A stretch of 64,000 nt of DNA, taken from Octopus vulgaris. Its lineage: Eukaryota. The stretch covers positions 116,560,001-116,624,000 of the forward strand of contig OX597821.1 in assembly GCA_951406725.2 (NCBI GenBank). The letters run 5' to 3'. The notes under the pieces were generated by a model. That model was given only the letters and a program-made list of their open reading frames with translations, was not told where the DNA came from and did not search any database. Positions 2,818 to 61,750 of the stretch are shown piece after piece. Both the position numbers and the translations under genes were made by a program. Position 1 is the stretch's first letter. The number at the start of each line of letters is the position of its first letter.

Positions 2818-3199
2818 TGGTTCTGGGCTTAGTCCCACTGTGTGACACCTTGGGCAAGTGTCTTCTGCAATACCCTCAGGCTGGCCAAAGCTTTCTGAGT
2901 GGATTTGGCAGGTGGAAACTGAAGGAAGCTCATCATGTAGATATATATTTATATATCTAGTTAATCTAAACATGAACAAAGAGAAAACACAACAACGTGA
3001 GGACGTGGAACAAGTATAGTGTTATTGGACACTGAGGAAAGGAAAGAAAGAAGGAGGATTTAACGTTTCGAGCGGAGCTCTTTGTCAGAAACATGGAAAA
3101 AAGGAAAAGTCCAAGGAAGGGAAGACAGAGAAAGAAAATCGCCAACGATACACACGCGATCACATATTCAAAATATATATATAGCTATGTGTGTGTGTT

Positions 3200-16506: not shown

Positions 16507-16509
<3 letters not shown>

Positions 16510-17292
16510 AGAAAAAGGCAACAAAAATGGATCAGTATTTCGGTACAATTGTTTTATACGAAGACCAGCTTTATTAAGGCTGCAAATATTGCAGCAAATA
16601 CAAGTGACCCGTACTCATCAGCCAAAAACACATCTGAGTTCCCCAAACATCTAAGGGGGTGAGGCTACACTCATGAAACATCAGGGATAGTTCTATAAAA
16701 ATCAGATTTAGATAATAAACGGACTTCCAAAGTTCTCTAATGTTGCACAGTCATATAACAGGTCTTAAAAAAGTATTTTAAAAAGCCTGTTAGTTTCACA
16801 GAAAATGAAAATGTAAATCCATCCATAATGAAGTAGGTTTGATTTCTGGAGATATGAGGAGAGATTTCATACTCACAGACGATGAATTTATCCATAATTA
16901 GTCCATAATAAAGTGGGTATAGTTTCCTGATGTATGATGATATACTGGTTACACTTTAGAAGTCAGTTTATTATCTAAATCTGATTTTTATAGAACTATC
17001 CCTGATGTTTCATGAGTGTAGCCTCACCCCCTTAGATGTTTGGAGAACTCAGATGTGTTTTTGGCTGATGAGAACGGGTCACTTGTATTTGCTGCAATAT
17101 TTGCAGCCTTAATAAAGCTGGTCTTCGTATGAAACAATTGTACAGAAATACTGATCCATTTTTGTTGCTTTTTTCTTGTTTATAATCACCCCGCATTATC
17201 TTATGGTTAATACCATATAGATTTCTGGTGCATCTAAGTTAAGTACCTCATTCATGTGAGTTCAAGAGAACTCACTTGAATCTTAATTGTTT

Positions 17293-17295
<3 letters not shown>
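16507..17295. mobile_element. Penelope-like non-autonomous element (221-bp inverted arms plus tail) in (TA)n
   Basis: Arms 16507-16727 and 16959-17179 with a few mismatches; tail 17180-17295; HHR in each arm. Confidence 0.75.
17061..17146 (+). ncRNA. Type-I hammerhead motif (mirror copy at 16540-16625, minus strand)
   Basis: Two-arm consensus TTGG-CTGATGA-GTACG...CGTAT-GAAA-CAATTG-TA-CCGA. Confidence 0.7.
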
Positions 17296-18384: not shown

Positions 18385-18598
18385 AACGGGAAGCTTTATG
18401 AAAATAGACAAAAGACGAAGGCAGGTGGAAAACAAACAAACAATTGTATTAGTATGGTGCTCAGGAAATATAAATAAAACAAGTCTTTAACGTTTCGAGC
18501 CTACGCTCTTCAACAGAAAGATACACAGAGAGAAAAAAAACACAGAAAGAAGGAGAGAAAAAAATGCGTGCAGTAACTAACGAATCAACATGGCGGTC
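18385..18598 (-). mobile_element. ~215-bp HHR-bearing element between (TA)n tracts
   Basis: Reverse strand 18520-18485: CTTT-CTGTTGA-A-GAGC-gtag-GCTC-GAAA-CGTT-AAAG; related to 2955-3172. Confidence 0.6.
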
Positions 18599-18612
18599 TA
18601 TATATATGTATG

Positions 18613-34485: not shown

Positions 34486-36035
34486 TTCAATTCAATTCAA
34501 TTCAATTTTTATTGGCTCAAAAAGCAAAAGCAAGGCCATGTAGGGGGACAAGGAATTATGTACAGGGAGGGTGGTCATACAAAGAGTTCAGGCTATTTCT
34601 AATCAAGAGAGACTATGAACCGAGCGGTCATCGGCATCTTCACTATCTCGTCCAGCAGCTTATTCCAAAGATCCGCAACCCTGACGGAGAAAGCCCCTCT
34701 CCTTCGATTGAGATAAAATCGTCGTAGATAGAGCTTTTCAGAGTGACCCCGCAGCCCACACTCTGGAGCAGGAGTGAAGAACAGCTCTTTCGAGAGGTTA
34801 CACTTTCCGCTTATGATGTTGTGAGCGAGAACGAGATCACCACGGTATTATCGTTTTTCGAGAGAATGAAGGTCGAGTGTCTTCAACCTTTCTTCATAAG
34901 ACAAATGCTTGAGACCAAGAACCATGCAGGTAGCCAGTTTCTGGACTCTTTCGAGATGATGTTTCTCTTTGAGGAGATAAGGAGAAGAGACTTGAATCCT
35001 GTACTCCAATATGGGTCTCACCAGCATGACATAGAGTGGTAGGAATATGACTGCTGTGAATGACCGTCGAATCAAAAACAGAACTCCACATGCTTTGTTG
35101 GCAGCAGGGACGCATTGGGCCGAAGGCGAAAAGGAAGAATCCACCAAGATACCCAGGTCCTTTACTTGGTCGGTCTTCTCCAGCAGCAGACGACCCTGCT
35201 CGAAATCAAGTTGAGTTGCAGGAGCGGAGCCAACAGGCAGATGACAGTACTTTGACACGTTCAGACACAGGTCCCATTCGTTTGACCATCTCCAAACTTG
35301 GTGGAGGCATCGATGAAGATCATCTATATCACCGCGAGGAGCGACCAGTTTGACATCATCGGCAAATAGAAGGGTGTGTTGTGTGAGGTCATCGGGAAAG
35401 TCATTGATGAAAACTAAAAACAATAACGGCCCAAGCACTGAACCTCGAGGCACGCCACTGCTCACACTGGAGACGTCGGGCAGCAAACCATTAACTTGGA
35501 CTTGGAAGGAGCGATCTGAGAGGAAGGCACCAACCCATCATACAATATCCGGATGGAAACTATATGCTTGAAGCTTGACAAGTAATAGGCAGTGGTTAAC
35601 CGAGTCAAAAGCTTTGGCAAAGTCCAATAAAACGATGTCAACAACATCACCATCATCCAGGATACGCATCACCAATTCTTCCATTACCAGTAAGTTGGTC
35701 AAGCTTGATCTCTTCAGCATGAAGCTGTGTTGGGAATCAGAGATAGAGGCTGTGTTTTGGAGGTGGAGCAACATACTTTTCTTCAGGATAGTTTTGAACA
35801 TCTTGCTGATTATTGAAGTAAGGGAAACCAGTTGGTAGTTAAGTGGGTCTTCGCGGCTCCCTTTCTTGAAAATCAGGCAGATTATCGCTGTTCTCCAGTC
35901 CGCAGGTACAACTCGTGTCGCCAATGACATATTGAATAGAAGTGTTAAAGGTTCGCAGATGACCGGAGCCAACGCTTTGATAACCTGTGGGTGTATGCTG
36001 TCAGGGTCATGACCCTTGTTGACATCGAGGCCTTG
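34486..36035 (-). mobile_element. 5'-truncated CR1-clade LINE, reverse transcriptase pseudogene
   Basis: ORFs 35538-36119 and 34848-35486 carry DFAKAFDSV, GVPRGSVLGPLLF and LFADD. C-terminus LRGHSEKL...FSVRVADLWNKL; AATAAA plus (TTGAA)n tail; stops and frameshifts present. Confidence 0.92.
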
Positions 36036-36740
36036 AATAAATATATATATATATATATACTCACACACACGCATACATCTATATACATGCATATATACAT
36101 ATATGCGCACTCTATACAATCTTTATACTCTTTCGTTTTTCTCTCTTATTCTTTTACCTCCTCTTATCCAACTATTCTATCCTAATACTCTATCACTCTC
36201 TCTCCCTCACTCCTTCTCCCTTGCTCACGTGGTTTCCACGTGACCATCAGCCATCTTTCTTTCTCTCCATTCTAGCTAGAACAAGGAAGACATGTTCTAG
36301 TTTGTCTCCTGTCCTAGATTGATTTATGCATTCACCACCACAACCTTGTTTAGGCTTAGCATCCCTTCCTGTTTCTTTTTACTGTCCTGTTTGTATTACC
36401 TATTTTGACCCTCCACAAAATCCCAAATTTTATTTAATTTGCTTTGCGGGACCAACTGTTTTATCAAAAGCATATACTGTTGTTAAATGCTCAAAATACA
36501 AGACTAGAAAAACAGCCAACAACTGATGAAGGGTCGTTCTTTATGTTGTTTGTTTTGTTTTCCATTTGTATCTTTCATTGTTTCAAAGAATAGTTCATGT
36601 TCCATGTGCTCATACTTCATATTTTTTGTTGCTATACACATTTCATGATGTCCTGTACCCACATATGCATATACATATACGTATAGATGTAAGTATGTAC
36701 ATATACGTGTGTATATATGCTTATATATATATATATATAT

Positions 36741-36788
<48 letters not shown>

Positions 36789-36789
36789 A

Positions 36790-37119
36790 TATTAGGGAAT
36801 AAATCCAAACTTACAGGGAAAAATTAGATTTAGGATTAAATCCAATTTTATAGTATAAATATATTATATTATATTATATTAAATTAGAGATAAAACCACT
36901 ATTAGGCAAATCAAACAGTGAAAAACATAAGCCAATACATAAAATTAATTTTAAAATATAAAAGTTAAAAATAAAAAACTATTTAAATAATTTAAATAAT
37001 TTATTTAATAAATTATTTAAATAATTTTTTATTTTTAACTTTTATATTTTTAAATTAATTTTATGTATTGGCTTATGTTTTTCACTGTTTGATTTGCCTA
37101 ATAGTGGTTTTATCTCTAA
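36790..37119. repeat. AT-rich near-perfect palindrome (36884-37119) with unpaired tail, in (TA)n
   Basis: TTAGAGATAAAACCACTATTAGGCAAATCAAACAGTG... versus ...CACTGTTTGATTTGCCTAATAGTGGTTTTATCTCTAA. Confidence 0.85.
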
Positions 37120-37162
<43 letters not shown>

Positions 37163-37167
<5 letters not shown>

Positions 37168-37913
37168 TTAAAATTACTAAGTCTCTCTAAAAGAGAACAC
37201 GGCAGCGTTCCCGGAAAAAAATAGTTATCGCCATACTAATATGGCATTCTTATAAAAATAAGAATAAAGCTGACCGCTTATTAGCTCCATGAGGCCATCG
37301 CCTTAAGTTAGCTATTTGATACACAAACTGTATCCATATAACCTTCGAACAAGGGAGGTCAGTCGCTCCACACTACTTGACCGACAGCTACAGACGCGTT
37401 TCGGGGTATTGCCCTTTTCAATGTAGCGTAGCCAGACCAGTAGGTGTCGCTTCTGACAATCTCTGTTCGAAGGTTTTATTTACCTAGTTTCGGTGGAATA
37501 CATCCACTTGTTTTCAATAATAATGCATGCCATATTAGTATGGCGATAACTATTATTTTCCGGGAACGCTGCCGTGTTCTCTTTTAGAGAGACTTAGTAA
37601 TTTTAATATTTCTATTATTGAAAACAAGTGGATGTATTCCACCGAAACTAGGTAAATAAAACCTTCGAACAGAGATTGTCAGAAGCGACACCTACTGGTC
37701 TGGCTACACTACATTGAAAAGGGGCAATACCCCGAAACGCGTCTGTAGCTGTCGGTCAAGTAGTGTGGAGTGACTGACCTCCCTTGTTCGAAGGTTATAT
37801 GGATACAGTTTGTGTATCAAATAGCTAACTTAAGGCGATGGCCTCATGGAGCTAATAAGCGGTCAGCTTTATTCTTATTTTTATAAGAATGCCATATTAG
37901 TATGGCGATAACT
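37163..37913. mobile_element. Retrozyme-like 362-nt monomer as inverted, circularly permuted pair
   Basis: Right copy 37527-37888 followed by a 25-nt repeat of its own start; left arm 37163-37522 is the reverse complement of the same unit opened at 37613. Confidence 0.8.
37709..37748 (+). ncRNA. Minimal type-I hammerhead, U3:A8 variant (mirror copy 37387-37427, minus strand)
   Basis: CTACA-TTGAAAA-GGGG-caata-CCCC-GAAA-CGCG-TC-TGTAG; all three stems pair. Confidence 0.8.
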
Positions 37914-37914
37914 G

Positions 37915-37978
<64 letters not shown>

Positions 37979-37999
37979 TTGTATGTGTGCATGTGTCTT

Positions 38000-38439
38000 T
38001 ATACAGTTCTATATTTAAGAGATGAGGAATTATGTATATTATTTACATTATTTACATTTGACGGATATTTGTCCTCATCTTGTTTGTCGTTAACAAAACG
38101 TTTTGGCTGATATACCCTCCAGCCTTCTTCGGGTGTCTTGAGGAAATTTCGAACCTGGGTTCTCATTCCTAAGGTATTTTTCAATGGTGGGGTTTGTAGC
38201 CCGCACTCTTAACCACTACGCCATATGCCCAAGTTCAATTCCAAGCAGTGACCTGAACAATAACAGTAACAATAATAATAATAATAAACATCTAAAAATA
38301 CCTTAGGAATGAGAGCCCAGGTTCAAAATTTCCCCAAAACACCTGATGAAGGCTGGAGGATTTATCAGCCGAAACGTTTTGTTAACAACAAACAAGATGT
38401 GGACAAATACCTGTCAAATGTAAATAGTGTAAATAATAT
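38000..38439. mobile_element. SINE family D (tRNA head plus HHR tail), inverted dimer 1
   Basis: Minus copy 38000-38230 carries the 5' head; plus copy 38231-38439 starts at the B box; HHRs at 38092-38137 (-) and 38338-38383 (+). Confidence 0.85.
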
Positions 38440-38624
38440 GTGTCCTTATGTTTCTGTTTGTCCCCTCCACCACTTGACAGCCAGTGTTGGTTTGTTTGTC
38501 TCCAAGTAACATAGTGGCTCAGCTAAAGAGAACAATAGAGTAAGTATCAGAGTCAAAAATACAAACTGGGGGCAACATGTGCAGGTAAACACTGTGTGTA
38601 TGTGTATGTATGTGCATGTGTCTT

Positions 38625-38826
38625 TATACAGTTCTATATTTAAGAGATGAGGAATTATGTATATTATTTACATTATTTATATTCAACGGATATTTGTCCT
38701 CATCTTGTTTGTTGTTAACAAAACGTTTGGCTGATATACCCTCCAGCCTTCATCAGGTGTCTTGGGGAAATTTTGAACCTAGATTCTCATTTCTAAGGGA
38801 TTTTTCAATATTGTTGTTGTTGTTTG

Positions 38827-38888
<62 letters not shown>

Positions 38889-39054
38889 GTTATTATTATT
38901 GTTATTATTTTTGTTATTGTTATTGTTCAAGTCACTGCTTGGAATTGAACTCGGGCATATGGCGTAGTGGTTAAGAATGGAGGCTACTAACCCCAAGATT
39001 CCGAGTTTGATTTCAAGAAGTGACCTGTACAATAACAATAATAATAATAATAAC

Positions 39055-39104
<50 letters not shown>

Positions 39105-39133
39105 TGATGATGATGATGATGATGATAATAATG

Positions 39134-39215
<82 letters not shown>

Positions 39216-39238
39216 TAATAATAATAATAATAATAATG

Positions 39239-39302
<64 letters not shown>

Positions 39303-39478
39303 CATTGAAAAATACCTTAGGAACGAGAACCCAGGTTTGAAATTTTCCCAACACACCTGATGAAGGCTGGAGAGTATATCAGCCGAAATGTTGTGTTAAC
39401 AACAAACAAGATGAGGGCAAATATCTGCCAAATGTAAATAATGTAAATAATTCCTCATCTCTTAAATATAAAACTGTA
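38625..39478. mobile_element. SINE family D inverted dimer 2
   Basis: Minus copy 38625-38952 truncated at the B box; full plus copy 38953-39478 with about 270 bp of (AAT)n; HHRs at 38716-38761 (-) and 39352-39397 (+). Confidence 0.85.
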
Positions 39479-40555
39479 TGAAATTTTGTGTTAGACTTGG
39501 GAAGTCTGCTACAGAGACATTGAGCATGCTTTGGCCAGGTTACAGCAATGAGGCAATGGGTCGTATGCCATGTTCTGTGTGGCATGAGTGCTTCAAAAGC
39601 AGAAGAATGTCCCTCGAAGACAATGAGCATTGTGGAAGACCTGCGACAAGCGTCACTTCTGGTAATGTGGTGTTGTGCATTGAGAATTTATCCCCCAAGG
39701 TCAAAGCATCAATCGAGAGTTCTACTGTGATGGTTTGAAGCATTTGAGGGAGCACATTTGGTAAAAGGAACCGGATCTCTGGAATGCAAAGAATTAGATT
39801 CTTCACCAAGCTCTCCTCACTTGTGAGTTTCTTGCCAAAAACAACATGGTATTGCTTCCACACCTGCCCTCTTCACCAGATTTTGCACCTCCAGGCTTCC
39901 AACTCTTCCCCAAGATGGAAATGCAGCTCAAAAGTTTTAACACTGTTGTTAAGATCCAGGGCAAATTGCAGAAGGTCCTTGACTTGCTTACAGAAAACGA
40001 CTTCATCATCATCATCATCATCATCGTTTAACATCCGTTTTCCATGCTAGCATGGGTTGGTGTGTTCGAACGGGGTCTGGGAAGCCAGGAGGCTGCACCA
40101 GGCTCCAGTCTGGTCTGGCAGTGTTTCTACAGCTGGATGCCCTTCCTAGCGCCAACCACTTCGTGAGTGTAGTGGGTGCTTTTTACGTGCCACCGGCACA
40201 GGTGCCATTAGAGGCTGGCAGTGGCCACGATCGGTCGGTGCTTTTCACGTGCCACCTGTACAGAAGCCAGTCAAGGTGGCACTGGCATCGGCCATGTTCG
40301 GATGGTGCTTTTTGCGTGCCACTGGCACAGGTATCACAACTACAATTCCCATTTGATATTTATTTTGATGTTGATGTACTTCACTCAATAGGTCTCCTCA
40401 AGCGCAGCGACTTCTAGGCCAGATTCCAAAAGTGGCAGCACCAGTGTATTAATGCGCAAAGTGACTATTTCAAAGGAGATAATGTTAAAACTTAAGTAAA
40501 TAAGTTATTTTATATTCAACATAACTAGTCTGGGAACATTTGACATCACCTCATA
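39478..40555 (+). pseudogene. Internally deleted mariner transposase relic
   Basis: MKFCVRLGKSATETLSML...SLEDNEHCGRP (HTH region), HLPSSPDFAPPGFQLFPKM (YSPDLAP-like) and TIR-like end CACCTCATA. Split by a family C insertion. Confidence 0.8.
40005..40407 (-). mobile_element. Family C (RTE 3' UTR) insertion with 7-bp TSD
   Basis: CGACTTC at 39998-40004 and 40408-40414. Confidence 0.85.
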
Positions 40556-47407: not shown

Positions 47408-48333
47408 TAATTCTGGTTTATTGGCCACAAGGGCTAACAAAAATCAAAGAAACATGTAAGGACAAATACAGGACGAAAAGTACAAAGGGTTTTGTCCGAT
47501 AGAAAGGTCCGTGTAAACATTCAGAATAACAACGAAAATATATATAACAAGTAAAACTCCCAATAGAGGGAGGCGCTTCGAAAGGTTACTCATGGAAAAA
47601 CCCATAAAAACCACGGGAGCCTGGTCGAAAAGGGGTAGAGAGCCCCTTTCTCCTTTTATACTTACTTTTTTTTTTCACAGGTGTAACCTCAGAATTGGTC
47701 CGTTCATACTGGCCATTTTCCCGATATTCACCCACCTTTCAATAAATTTGCTACGAGACAACACTTCCCTCTCTACTCTCACCTTCCTTTTCAAGTGGAA
47801 CTTGAAAAAGTTGATGAGGCCTTGGCCAAAGAGGAAGGTGTCTGATTTTAGCCCTTTCAAACGAGTCCACCATACTACTTCTTTCACTACAGCCACTAGA
47901 CAAAGGAAAATTGCCTTGCCCTCCCGGTTAAAGGTCGGCGAGGCAATCTTCACTATGGATTCAACTGATAGTCGGATCCATCCTATACGAGACAGTTGCT
48001 GTTTGACATAAACCCACAGGTCAGCAATACTCGAGCACTGGACAAGTGCATGCAGAATGGTTTTGCCGTCCTGAGCGCACCTCGGGCAGGTCCTGCTGAC
48101 AGCACTTCCATGCCGGTAGAGTTTATCTTAAACAGGCAGCGCTCCTCAGTACGAAAAATACCTTAGGAATGAGAACCTAGGTTTGAAATTTCCCCAAGAC
48201 ACCTGATGAAGGCTGGAGGGTATATCAGTTGAAACATTATGTTAACAACAAACAAGATGAGGACAAATATCCATCAAATGTAAATAATGTAAATAATGTA
48301 CATAATTCCTCATCTCTTAAATATAGAACTGTA
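47252..48333 (+). mobile_element. SINE family D monomer interrupted by a Tx1-like LINE
   Basis: Head GGCATATGGCATAGTGGTTAAG, then (AAT)n; tail resumes at 48152 with HHR 48198-48243. Confidence 0.85.
47410..48150 (-). mobile_element. Tx1-like (L1 clade) LINE 3' fragment
   Basis: ORF 47675-47953 is homologous to 60561-61373 (FNREGKAIF...WWTRLKGL...INFFKFHLKRKVRVER); upstream CPRC...H...C zinc knuckle. Confidence 0.85.
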
Positions 48334-48689
48334 TTATAACTGGAAACAGTTGTGCTATATCTGTGGCAATGGAGGTTCCTGTCATCTATCTGCACTATCT
48401 GTCTTAGCTGCCTTCCTGGGTTGTCTGGTTGGTAAAAATGTGTGCCAAATGGTATTTATAGGGGACCAGAATTCAAGTTCTAGAATGTCCAAGAATACCT
48501 ATCCATACCATTGCTTCTTCATGCCGATTGGTCAGTTAGTAGACCAATTGCGTAAAACTATGCTGGTTTGCTCATGATGTCTAACTGTATATCCAGGGAT
48601 TTGGTTTCAAAGCCTGGCTACATTTTATTTAAATTTATAAACACACATAACGTATTAGGAAGTGTTACTGTAGAGGAGATGTATTATGA

Positions 48690-60396: not shown

Positions 60397-61750
60397 ATCC
60401 TCTTCCGCTTCTTGTGGAAAGGATGCGTCCCGATGGTCAGGCGATCCATTTGCTGTCAACACCCGTTAAAAGGAGGGCTGGGCATGCCGTGGTTGATGAT
60501 GCGCAGACACGCGCTGAGACTGCGACATCTCCGGCTCTATGTAGACGACGGTGAACAGGTGTGGTCACCGTTTGTGAGGCACGCATTCCCGCAACTCGTC
60601 TCCATGACCGAACTACAGTCGTGGATCAAAAAGAGGCCGAGGAAGGGCGAATGGGCGAATGGCACCGCGAGTGTCGCGTTGCTCTCAAGCAACTCTGCCG
60701 TCCCGGGTCGACCTTGAGTGACTTCAACACAACCAAAGCATTCTATAGGGGATTAGTGGAGGGGAGGTACGACGCCGAGCTCGGGGCAAACCTGGGCGTC
60801 GACGAGGAATACCTGACCCGCCTGTTTCAAACGACTTTCGGCCTGGGACCTATGGACAACTTCCAGAGATCCCTGGCCTGGCGGTGCTACCGAGAAGCGC
60901 TACCCGTTCGGGATAAGCTCTATAGGCATGGCTCGAGAAACACGGGGCCGACCTGCCCGAGATGCGGGCAGAGCGACGAAACCGCTCTGCACGCAATCGT
61001 GCAGTGTCCAGCAATTTCCGACCTGTGGGCTTATGTCGAACGACTGCTGTCACGTGTGGGACGTGTCGGTTTATCAGCCGAGTCTATCGTTAATATCGTC
61101 ATGCCTCCTTCCTTCAAACGGGAAGGAAGAGCTATTTTTATCATACTTGTGGCTATGGCGAAAGAATGTATCTGGTGGACGCGCCTGAAAGGATTAGAGA
61201 CAAACACTTTCCTCTCTGGTCAATCTCTCATCAACTTCTTCAAGTATCACTTGAAGAGGAAAGTGAGAGTAGAGAGGCAAGTTTTGTCTAGTGAATGTTT
61301 TAAAAAAAGATGGGTGAATGTAGCAAGGATGGCACATATGAATGACGAAGCCACCTTGACTATGATTCTATGAACCGTAAAAATTAATACAGAGAGTTGC
61401 TTATTTGCAAAAAAAAAAAAAAAATAAATATAACATGTGACTTCATTGACCGAGGTTACCGTGGTCTTTTCCGTAGGCTTTTCTTTCCATGGGTAAACCT
61501 CACCTGTTCTCCCCTTTACACTTCATATTGACATTTCTGTGATAACATCCCTATTGATCAATTTTTTTGCTCTCCCCCACCTTTTTTTTTTTTTTTTATT
61601 AACCCCTCCTTTTTTTAGTCCTCTTTCTTTCCTTTTATGATCCCTTTTGATCGGAAACCACCACTCCCTTTTTTTTACCCCCAAAAGAAAAGCTCTACCT
61701 TGTAATTTGTTCTATCTGTGTGCAGCCCTGTGTGGCTAATAAAGAAACAT
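60397..61750 (+). mobile_element. 5'-truncated Tx1-like (L1 clade) LINE inside (TATC)n
   Basis: ILFRFLWKG...GGLGMP; zf-RVT-like CPRCGQSDETALHAIVQC; frameshift from GGGCGAAT duplication near 60655; T-rich 3' UTR with AATAAA; (TATC)n on both sides. Confidence 0.9.

What the first reader, a model, noticed from the sequence alone, without database searches (positions are those of the whole stretch)
37163..37913. 362-nt retrozyme-like monomer in two circular permutations, with a U3:A8 hammerhead
Seen: the plus copy is A+B (37527-37888) followed by 25 nt of A again. The minus copy (37163-37522) is one almost exact full unit in the order B+A. Both carry CTACA-TTGAAAA-GGG(G)caataCCCC-GAAA-CGCG-TC-TGTAG. 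There is no ORF, and (TA)n flanks both sides. Known: C3-G8 is a tertiary pair in the HHR core, so U3/A8 is a compensatory swap; non-LTR retrozymes are small non-coding HHR repeats that make circular RNAs. Inference: both arms were reverse-transcribed from a circular or tandem ~362-nt RNA; the near-identical arms suggest a young insertion.
Basis: partly seen in the sequence, partly recalled or inferred. Interest (0 to 1): 0.82.

Follow-up and report, generated by a model that had tools for sequence, protein, structure and literature searches.

The report
Penelope-inserted retrozyme with U3:A8 hammerhead
This is a head-to-head pair of copies of an abundant 362-base non-coding repeat with a predicted self-cutting hammerhead RNA, likely pasted into a TA microsatellite by a Penelope-type retrotransposon's enzyme; it is a new member of a known class, and cutting and circular RNA are untested.

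Summary
Observation confirmed. Two arms of a 362-nt non-coding unit (4 internal differences in 360 nt) meet at their 5' ends and point their 3' ends into (TA)n. Each holds a canonical-shaped type I hammerhead with U3:A8. Contigs of three public runs show a large, varied family (4376 contigs laid from one run). Both unit junctions are continuous in other copies, no difference is listed in the hammerhead core, and other copies invert at other points. Copy ends recur at two sites 62 nt apart, the unit's only two CTATTATT motifs, and one arm here ends at each. Inverted 5' copy, two-site 'tail' and AT-rich target are the published footprint of Penelope-like element (PLE) insertion; a PLE enzyme primes both DNA strands and starts inside its RNA. 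So the two 'permutations' are likely fixed internal starts plus variable 5' truncation. The template must hold more than one unit, but tandem and circular RNA fit equally. U3:A8 is already published in natural hammerheads, including flatworm PLEs. Verdict: new non-LTR-retrozyme-type family, useful as footprint evidence for PLE mobilisation. Cleavage, expression, circles and tandem arrays are untested or not shown.

The parts
37126..37163 (.). Left (TA)n target tract
37163..37522 (-). Minus arm: one unit, from unit position 87 round to 85/86; 3' end at the 'long' end site, in (TA)n
37381..37435 (-). Predicted type I hammerhead of the minus arm: U3:A8, 6-bp helix I, helix II shortened to 3 bp by loss of one G; predicted cut after 37393
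37517..37526 (.). Head-to-head joint: 9 of 10 bases match the unit's own B/A junction (inferred microhomology); 37523-37526 repeats the first 4 bases of the plus arm
   Evidence: inference
37527..37888 (+). Plus arm, one full 362-nt unit (40% GC, no ORF, strongly folded)
37550..37557 (+). CTATTATT motif 1 (unit 24-31): 'short' end site; the plus arm ends at its second copy, 37912-37918
37612..37619 (+). CTATTATT motif 2 (unit 86-93): 'long' end site, the commonest listed end of family copies; the 62 nt between the motifs is the tail
37618..37648 (+). Second, degenerate hammerhead-like module (same 7-base first box, hairpin, GAAAC); probably a relic
37700..37755 (+). Predicted type I hammerhead of the plus arm: core 37714-37720 (U3 37714, A8 37719), helix II 37721-37733, GAAA 37734-37737, palindromic helix III 37737-37742, predicted cut after C17 at 37743, helix I 37709-37713/37744-37748
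37889..37918 (+). Start of a second unit (25 nt exact, 30 with one mismatch), ending at the short site
37916..37957 (.). Right (TA)n target tract

Best explanation
This is one insertion of an abundant 362-nt non-coding repeat with a predicted U3:A8 hammerhead (non-LTR retrozyme type), likely written into a (TA)n tract by the enzyme of an autonomous Penelope-like element. Inferred steps: an RNA holding the unit in continuous form (tandem transcript, or circle made by hammerhead cleavage and ligation) is bound by the PLE protein; both strands of the (TA)n target are nicked; each primes reverse transcription at one of two internal sites, the CTATTATT motifs 62 nt apart; the two cDNAs run about one unit each and are joined through short microhomology, giving head-to-head arms with a tail on one side. 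Shown: the geometry, the recurring ends, both junctions, the family. Inferred from published PLE work: the enzyme and the steps. Untested: cleavage (predicted to need a dimer or protein help, since helix III is 2 bp and palindromic), transcription, circles. My odds for the template: tandem or uncleaved RNA 60, circle 40.
For: Geometry equals the PLE footprint: partial tandem, inverted 5'-truncated copy at the 5' end, tail, (TA)n bias (PMC8557442 passages; PMC3846280 passages). A purified PLE protein cuts and extends both strands of AT-rich DNA and starts at two internal RNA sites that bound the tail (PMC11167929). In run X1 loose ends run into (TA)n at 37615 (10 contigs), 37618 (36) and 37910 (5), of 184 partly laid; X19 has ends at 37618, 37619, 37912 and X10 at 37624. 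These are the only two CTATTATT motifs in the unit and each arm ends at one. B-to-A and A-to-B junctions are continuous in X19 contigs, and A-to-B in an X10 contig. Three strand-switch joints at other points are listed, one in all three runs. None of 28 listed differences falls in the hammerhead core; 4 break a predicted pair against 9.4 expected in the circular fold (P about 0.01), 6 against 10.0 in the linear fold (P about 0.05). The arms share alleles that are minor in X1 (37681, 37752, 37863), as expected of one source RNA or locus. Animal retrozymes are proposed PLE dependants.
Against: No partner PLE was found: the only RT in the window looks CR1/L2-like (my reading). No dimer or longer array was seen, as no contig spans the stretch, and this locus fails the two-unit rule for an 'active' retrozyme. 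The tail is 62 nt, not the usual 30-40. The published PLE start site is not homologous to the target, whereas these are TA-like. Eighteen of 108 loose-end rows were shown, so a minority running into a longer element is not excluded. Depth dips at 37677-37718, so divergent C3:G8 subfamilies could be missed. Eight of nine predicted Xenopus retrozyme dimers did not cleave in vitro, and PLE insertion did not need hammerhead cleavage. This exact joint was not seen in independent data.
Confidence: 0.8

Rival explanations
1. The 362-nt unit is the terminal repeat (pLTR) stump of a longer protein-coding PLE, and this is an ordinary truncated and inverted PLE insertion, not a free non-autonomous unit.
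For: Same geometry; U3-A8 was found through Cercyon PLEs, and paired motifs 100-700 bp apart on opposite strands are reported; most loose-end rows were not shown.
Against: After segment A the sequence returns precisely to the start of B, here and in X10 and X19 contigs; share of laid contigs running on into unlike sequence is 0 in X1; 0 of 6 frames hit Pfam; the hammerhead has the canonical retrozyme shape, not the minimal PLE shape.
Confidence: 0.1
2. Only one arm was reverse-transcribed from RNA; the other arose by fold-back copying of the first cDNA, or the arms are two separate insertions made alike later by gene conversion.
For: Shared minor alleles; short palindromes at the joint, and self-priming was proposed for such joints.
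Against: The plus arm has the extra 86-nt segment but ends at the short site, so simple fold-back on it could not give the longer end of the minus arm without a template jump; the spacer has the wrong orientation for fold-back on the minus arm (sequence). Separate insertions would not be expected to meet 5' to 5' without a target remnant.
Confidence: 0.07
3. The inversion is an assembly artefact of a high-copy repeat beside microsatellites.
For: The joint was not tested independently: it lies at the edge of the stretch laid, and the raw-read run laid nothing. PLE structures are known to trouble assemblers.
Against: Each arm has two private changes; the joint has 4 extra bases; the arms end at the two family end sites; an unrelated element at 16507-17295 has the same layout.
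Confidence: 0.03

Closest known systems
Animal non-LTR retrozymes (Cervera & de la Pena 2020, PMC7229834; Li, Clavereau & Pollet 2026, 10.64898/2026.07.22.740005)
   Same: Non-coding unit of 362 nt (mussel units 350-390), GC under 45%, canonical-shaped type I hammerhead left free to fold in a self-paired RNA, dispersed high-copy family.
   Different: Core is U3:A8; this locus is an inverted pair of about one unit each, not a tandem array; cleavage and circRNA untested. Word searches of both main texts found no description of inverted insertions, nor of tails in the 2026 text.
Insertion footprint of endonuclease-bearing PLEs (Craig et al. 2021, PMC8557442; Arkhipova et al. 2013, PMC3846280; Frangieh et al. 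2024, PMC11167929)
   Same: Partial tandem, inverted 5'-truncated copy at the 5' end, one-sided tail between two fixed starts, AT-rich or (TA)n target, hammerhead in the repeat.
   Different: No RT or GIY-YIG ORF; tail 62 nt instead of 30-40; both end sites are TA-like, so they may pair with the target primer, unlike the anole element's site.
Natural U3:A8 hammerheads (Perreault et al. 2011, PMC3088659; Schistosoma mansoni minimal hammerheads, Cervera & de la Pena 2014, PMC4209133)
   Same: Same compensatory swap of the 3-8 pair.
   Different: Here it sits in a canonical frame (helix I 6 bp, helix II 4 bp, helix III 2 bp with palindromic loop), not a minimal one, and appears fixed in a retrozyme-type family.

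Membership tests
Non-LTR retrozyme | Type I hammerhead with canonical helices and core | tested here: met
   Helix II pair probability 0.98, helix I 0.72-0.76, palindromic helix III; core complete apart from U3:A8. Rfam models do not detect it.
Non-LTR retrozyme | Short non-coding monomer, GC under 45% | tested here: met
   362 nt, GC 40.1%, no ORF, 0 of 6 frames hit Pfam.
Non-LTR retrozyme | Highly self-paired predicted RNA | tested here: met
   z -7.0; the antisense strand folds almost as well, z -6.4.
Non-LTR retrozyme | Head-to-tail tandem copies, dimers or more | tested here: inconclusive
   1.07 units here; both junctions continuous in other runs, but no contig is long enough to show two hammerheads.
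Non-LTR retrozyme | Self-cleavage | not testable with these tools
   Needs an in vitro assay.
Non-LTR retrozyme | Expressed as linear and circular monomer RNA | not testable with these tools
   Contigs cannot show circles, ends or strand.
PLE-mobilised insertion | Inverted 5'-truncated copy next to the 5' end | tested here: met
   other joints
PLE-mobilised insertion | Two fixed 3' ends bounding a tail | tested here: met
   Ends at 37615-37618 and near 37910-37918; 62 nt apart, longer than usual.
PLE-mobilised insertion | AT-rich or (TA)n target | tested here: met
PLE-mobilised insertion | Target-site duplication | tested here: inconclusive
   Cannot be read inside (TA)n.
Autonomous PLE | RT plus GIY-YIG ORF | tested here: not met
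   No ORF or Pfam hit in the element.
PLE minimal hammerhead | Long helix II, extra base after A9, no helix III loop | tested here: not met
   4-bp helix II, no extra base, 2-nt loop III.

The most novel reading that the evidence does not exclude
The locus is a direct fossil of PLE reverse transcription on a retrozyme circle: one circular RNA was primed from both strands of a TA break at two TA-pairing sites, one cDNA stopped after one turn (the minus arm begins within about 2 nt of where it ends) and the other overran by 25-30 nt. The family would then be a genome-wide record of rolling reverse transcription on an animal circRNA, with a fixed U3:A8 ribozyme.
Probability: 0.3. Interest if true: 0.65.

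Novelty: new member of a known kind. Interest (0 to 1): 0.42.

Why it matters
Which machinery moves animal retrozymes, and whether it copies a circle, is argued so far from co-occurrence and sequence kinship. A family with many insertions, two fixed start sites and PLE-type inversions gives footprint evidence and a simple genome-only test: a peak of arm lengths at exactly one unit would favour a circle. The U3:A8 core matters practically, because descriptor and Rfam screens would miss the family, but it is not a new chemistry.

Tried and rejected
Contig ends at the cut site: two X19 contigs end at 37743, but they differ at 37713, exactly 30 nt before, and a third starts at 37714 and spans the site; this is a graph branch, not cleavage evidence. 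Expression: no RNA holder listed; X10 and X19 are only guessed to be RNA and were used for sequence only. Raw-read run X21 laid 0 reads, which is no test. Summed contig depth was not read as copy number; the depth step near the hammerhead is confounded by the window copy's own divergence. No whole genome is held, so copies could not be mapped. Pattern scans found nothing in metagenome, viral (29) and prokaryote (54) collections. Rfam: no match at gathering score; MIR6217 and other miRNA hits at E-value level are hairpin or microsatellite matches below cut-off. No tRNA. Bacterial promoter scan at chance level and not relevant. RT remnant 34851-36122 rejected as partner. A double hammerhead between the relic module and the main one was rejected by eye, as their helix III strands are not complementary. 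The supplement of an Octopus vulgaris repeat paper does not hold two motifs of the unit; it holds no consensus library. The supplement of PMC7229834 could not be read and bioRxiv supplements are closed; either may list this family or a U3:A8 retrozyme.

Full report
Observation. The plus arm is a 362-nt unit (37527-37888) followed by its first 25 nt exactly, or 30 nt with one mismatch. The minus arm (37522 to 37163) is unit positions 87-362 then 1-85/86, with three substitutions and one lost G inside. The arms meet 5' to 5' across four extra bases and both 3' ends run into (TA)n. There is no ORF of 120 aa and no Pfam hit in 6 of 6 frames. The unit is 40% GC and folds at z -7.0, against +1.0 to -1.3 for six control stretches. 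There is no third copy in the window. The microsatellites and repeats remind me of octopus genomes; that is recalled and was not tested.

The hammerhead. Core 37714-37720 has U3 and A8; helix II is 4 G-C pairs with a 5-nt loop; helix III is 2 bp with a 2-nt loop, the whole a 6-nt palindrome that pairs with a second copy (-7.5 kcal/mol); C17 is 37743. Helix I has 5 bp in the plus arm and 6 bp in the minus arm, followed by an internal loop and a further helix. This is the canonical metazoan type I shape (helix I 6 bp, helix II 4 bp, short palindromic helix III, dimer-dependent) and not the minimal PLE shape (PMC4209133, first two of four parts read). That the loops resemble the tertiary-contact loops of the Schistosoma ribozyme is recalled, not tested. 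U3:A8 is known: natural cases, active in vitro (PMC3088659 passages), and about 1,300 Schistosoma motifs first found through Cercyon PLEs. Two searches for the variant found that one paper only; a U3:A8 core in a canonical retrozyme hammerhead did not turn up, but unread supplements may hold one. Rfam misses the motif. Each arm has a private lesion: the plus arm lost the sixth pair of helix I (37708), the minus arm one G of helix II.

The family. Twenty of 24 listed runs, from 8 studies and 4 organism labels, hold part of the stretch. Four were laid on 37523-37913. X21 laid nothing, which is no test. X1 laid 4376 contigs (1446 at 99% or more, 1828 at 95-99, 998 at 90-95, 104 below), X10 45 and X19 23. 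This shows a large, varied family, not a copy number. None of the 28 listed differences lies in the hammerhead core, so U3:A8 is a family trait among contigs at least 88% alike; depth dips just upstream, so divergent subfamilies may be missed. Four of 28 differences break a predicted pair against 9.4 expected in the circular fold (P about 0.01), six against 10.0 in the linear fold (P about 0.05); the tolerated ones are one-sided changes, not two-sided covariation.

Ends and joints. The best-supported loose ends in X1 run into (TA)n at 37615 (10 contigs), 37618 (36) and 37910 (5), of 184 partly laid; X19 ends at 37618, 37619 and 37912, X10 at 37624. Eighteen of 108 rows were shown. These two sites are the only CTATTATT motifs of the unit, 62 nt apart; the minus arm ends at one and the plus arm at the other. 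Both junctions are continuous elsewhere: an X19 contig runs from B-like sequence into A, and X19 and X10 contigs cross from A into B without gaps at the junction. Strand-switch joints lie at 37566/37799, 37582/37875 (all three runs) and 37759/37846; the side lengths of the first two (46, and up to 36) fit short arms running to the long end, that is head-to-head pairs (inference). The arms share alleles that are minor in X1 by summed depth: 37681 (other letter 136,897 of 146,352), 37752 (867,856 of 922,826), 37863 (813,925 of 1,022,122). That points to one source RNA or locus, provided X1 is close to the window's own population.

Mechanism. Partial tandem, inverted 5'-truncated copy, one-sided tail and (TA)n bias are the described PLE footprint (PMC8557442 passages; PMC3846280 passages). 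A purified anole PLE protein cuts and extends both strands of AT-rich DNA, starts at two internal RNA sites that bound the tail, and does not need hammerhead cleavage to insert (PMC11167929, first two of four parts). Applied here (inference): each target strand primed one cDNA at one motif, on an RNA that holds the unit continuously, and the cDNAs were joined by microhomology, since 9 of 10 bases at the joint match the unit's B/A junction. Both arms cross the predicted cut site and one exceeds a unit, so a cleaved linear monomer cannot be the template without a jump. Tandem and circular RNA both can. The minus arm starting where it ends hints at one turn of a circle, but the microhomology explains that position too.

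Comparison. It works like a PLE-mobilised non-autonomous element and fits non-LTR retrozymes in size, composition, fold and ribozyme type (PMC7229834 passages and sections 14 and 17). Tandem arrays, cleavage and circles are not shown, so membership is probable, not complete. That retrozymes depend on PLEs is already proposed and supported by co-occurrence and phylogeny (2026 preprint, first three of five parts read). Word searches of those two texts found no description of inverted insertions, and a library search for retrozyme plus inverted plus insertion returned only the preprint. Caution: 8 of 9 predicted Xenopus dimers did not cleave. Earlier notes of this scan describe the same footprint in other genomes; they are unchecked leads.

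Verdict. Its value is as footprint evidence tying a retrozyme-type unit to PLE insertion and as a testable case for a circular template. Interest 0.42.

Noticed in passing
window 37618-37648 (+), and its copy in the minus arm: A second hammerhead-like module with the same U3:A8 box, a 5-bp hairpin and GAAAC, starting at the long end site. 10 of 5000 shuffles give such a module (test chosen after seeing it). Its A15.1 equivalent (37647) is G in about a quarter of X1 depth, so probably a relic of an internal duplication.
   Followed up: partly
window 16507-17295: Unrelated element with a similar layout: inverted arms of 227 nt at 97%, a 116-nt extension on one side, (TA)n on both sides, a CTGATGA box in each arm; no Pfam hit in 6 frames.
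   Followed up: partly
window 36785-37126: Very AT-rich inverted-repeat insert between (TA)n tracts with a one-sided extension, directly left of the finding.
   Followed up: no
window 37985-39482 and 48153-48334: Five copies of another repeat, in both orientations, with a minimal C3:G8 hammerhead (38343, 39357), beside (TAA)n and a tRNA-like SINE-looking segment.
   Followed up: partly
window 18386-18600 and near 3040-3096 (-): Two decayed minimal-hammerhead motifs of one apparent family; the first lies between (TA)n tracts.
   Followed up: no
window 34851-36122 (-): Broken reverse transcriptase remnant (Pfam RVT_1), CR1/L2-like by my reading, not a PLE.
   Followed up: partly
window 60555-61370 (+): ORF with a zf-RVT domain, probably another LINE remnant.
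   Followed up: no
window 37220-37916: The two arms would form about 300 bp of near-perfect double-stranded RNA if read through, a likely substrate for editing or silencing; no host gene was identified.
   Followed up: no
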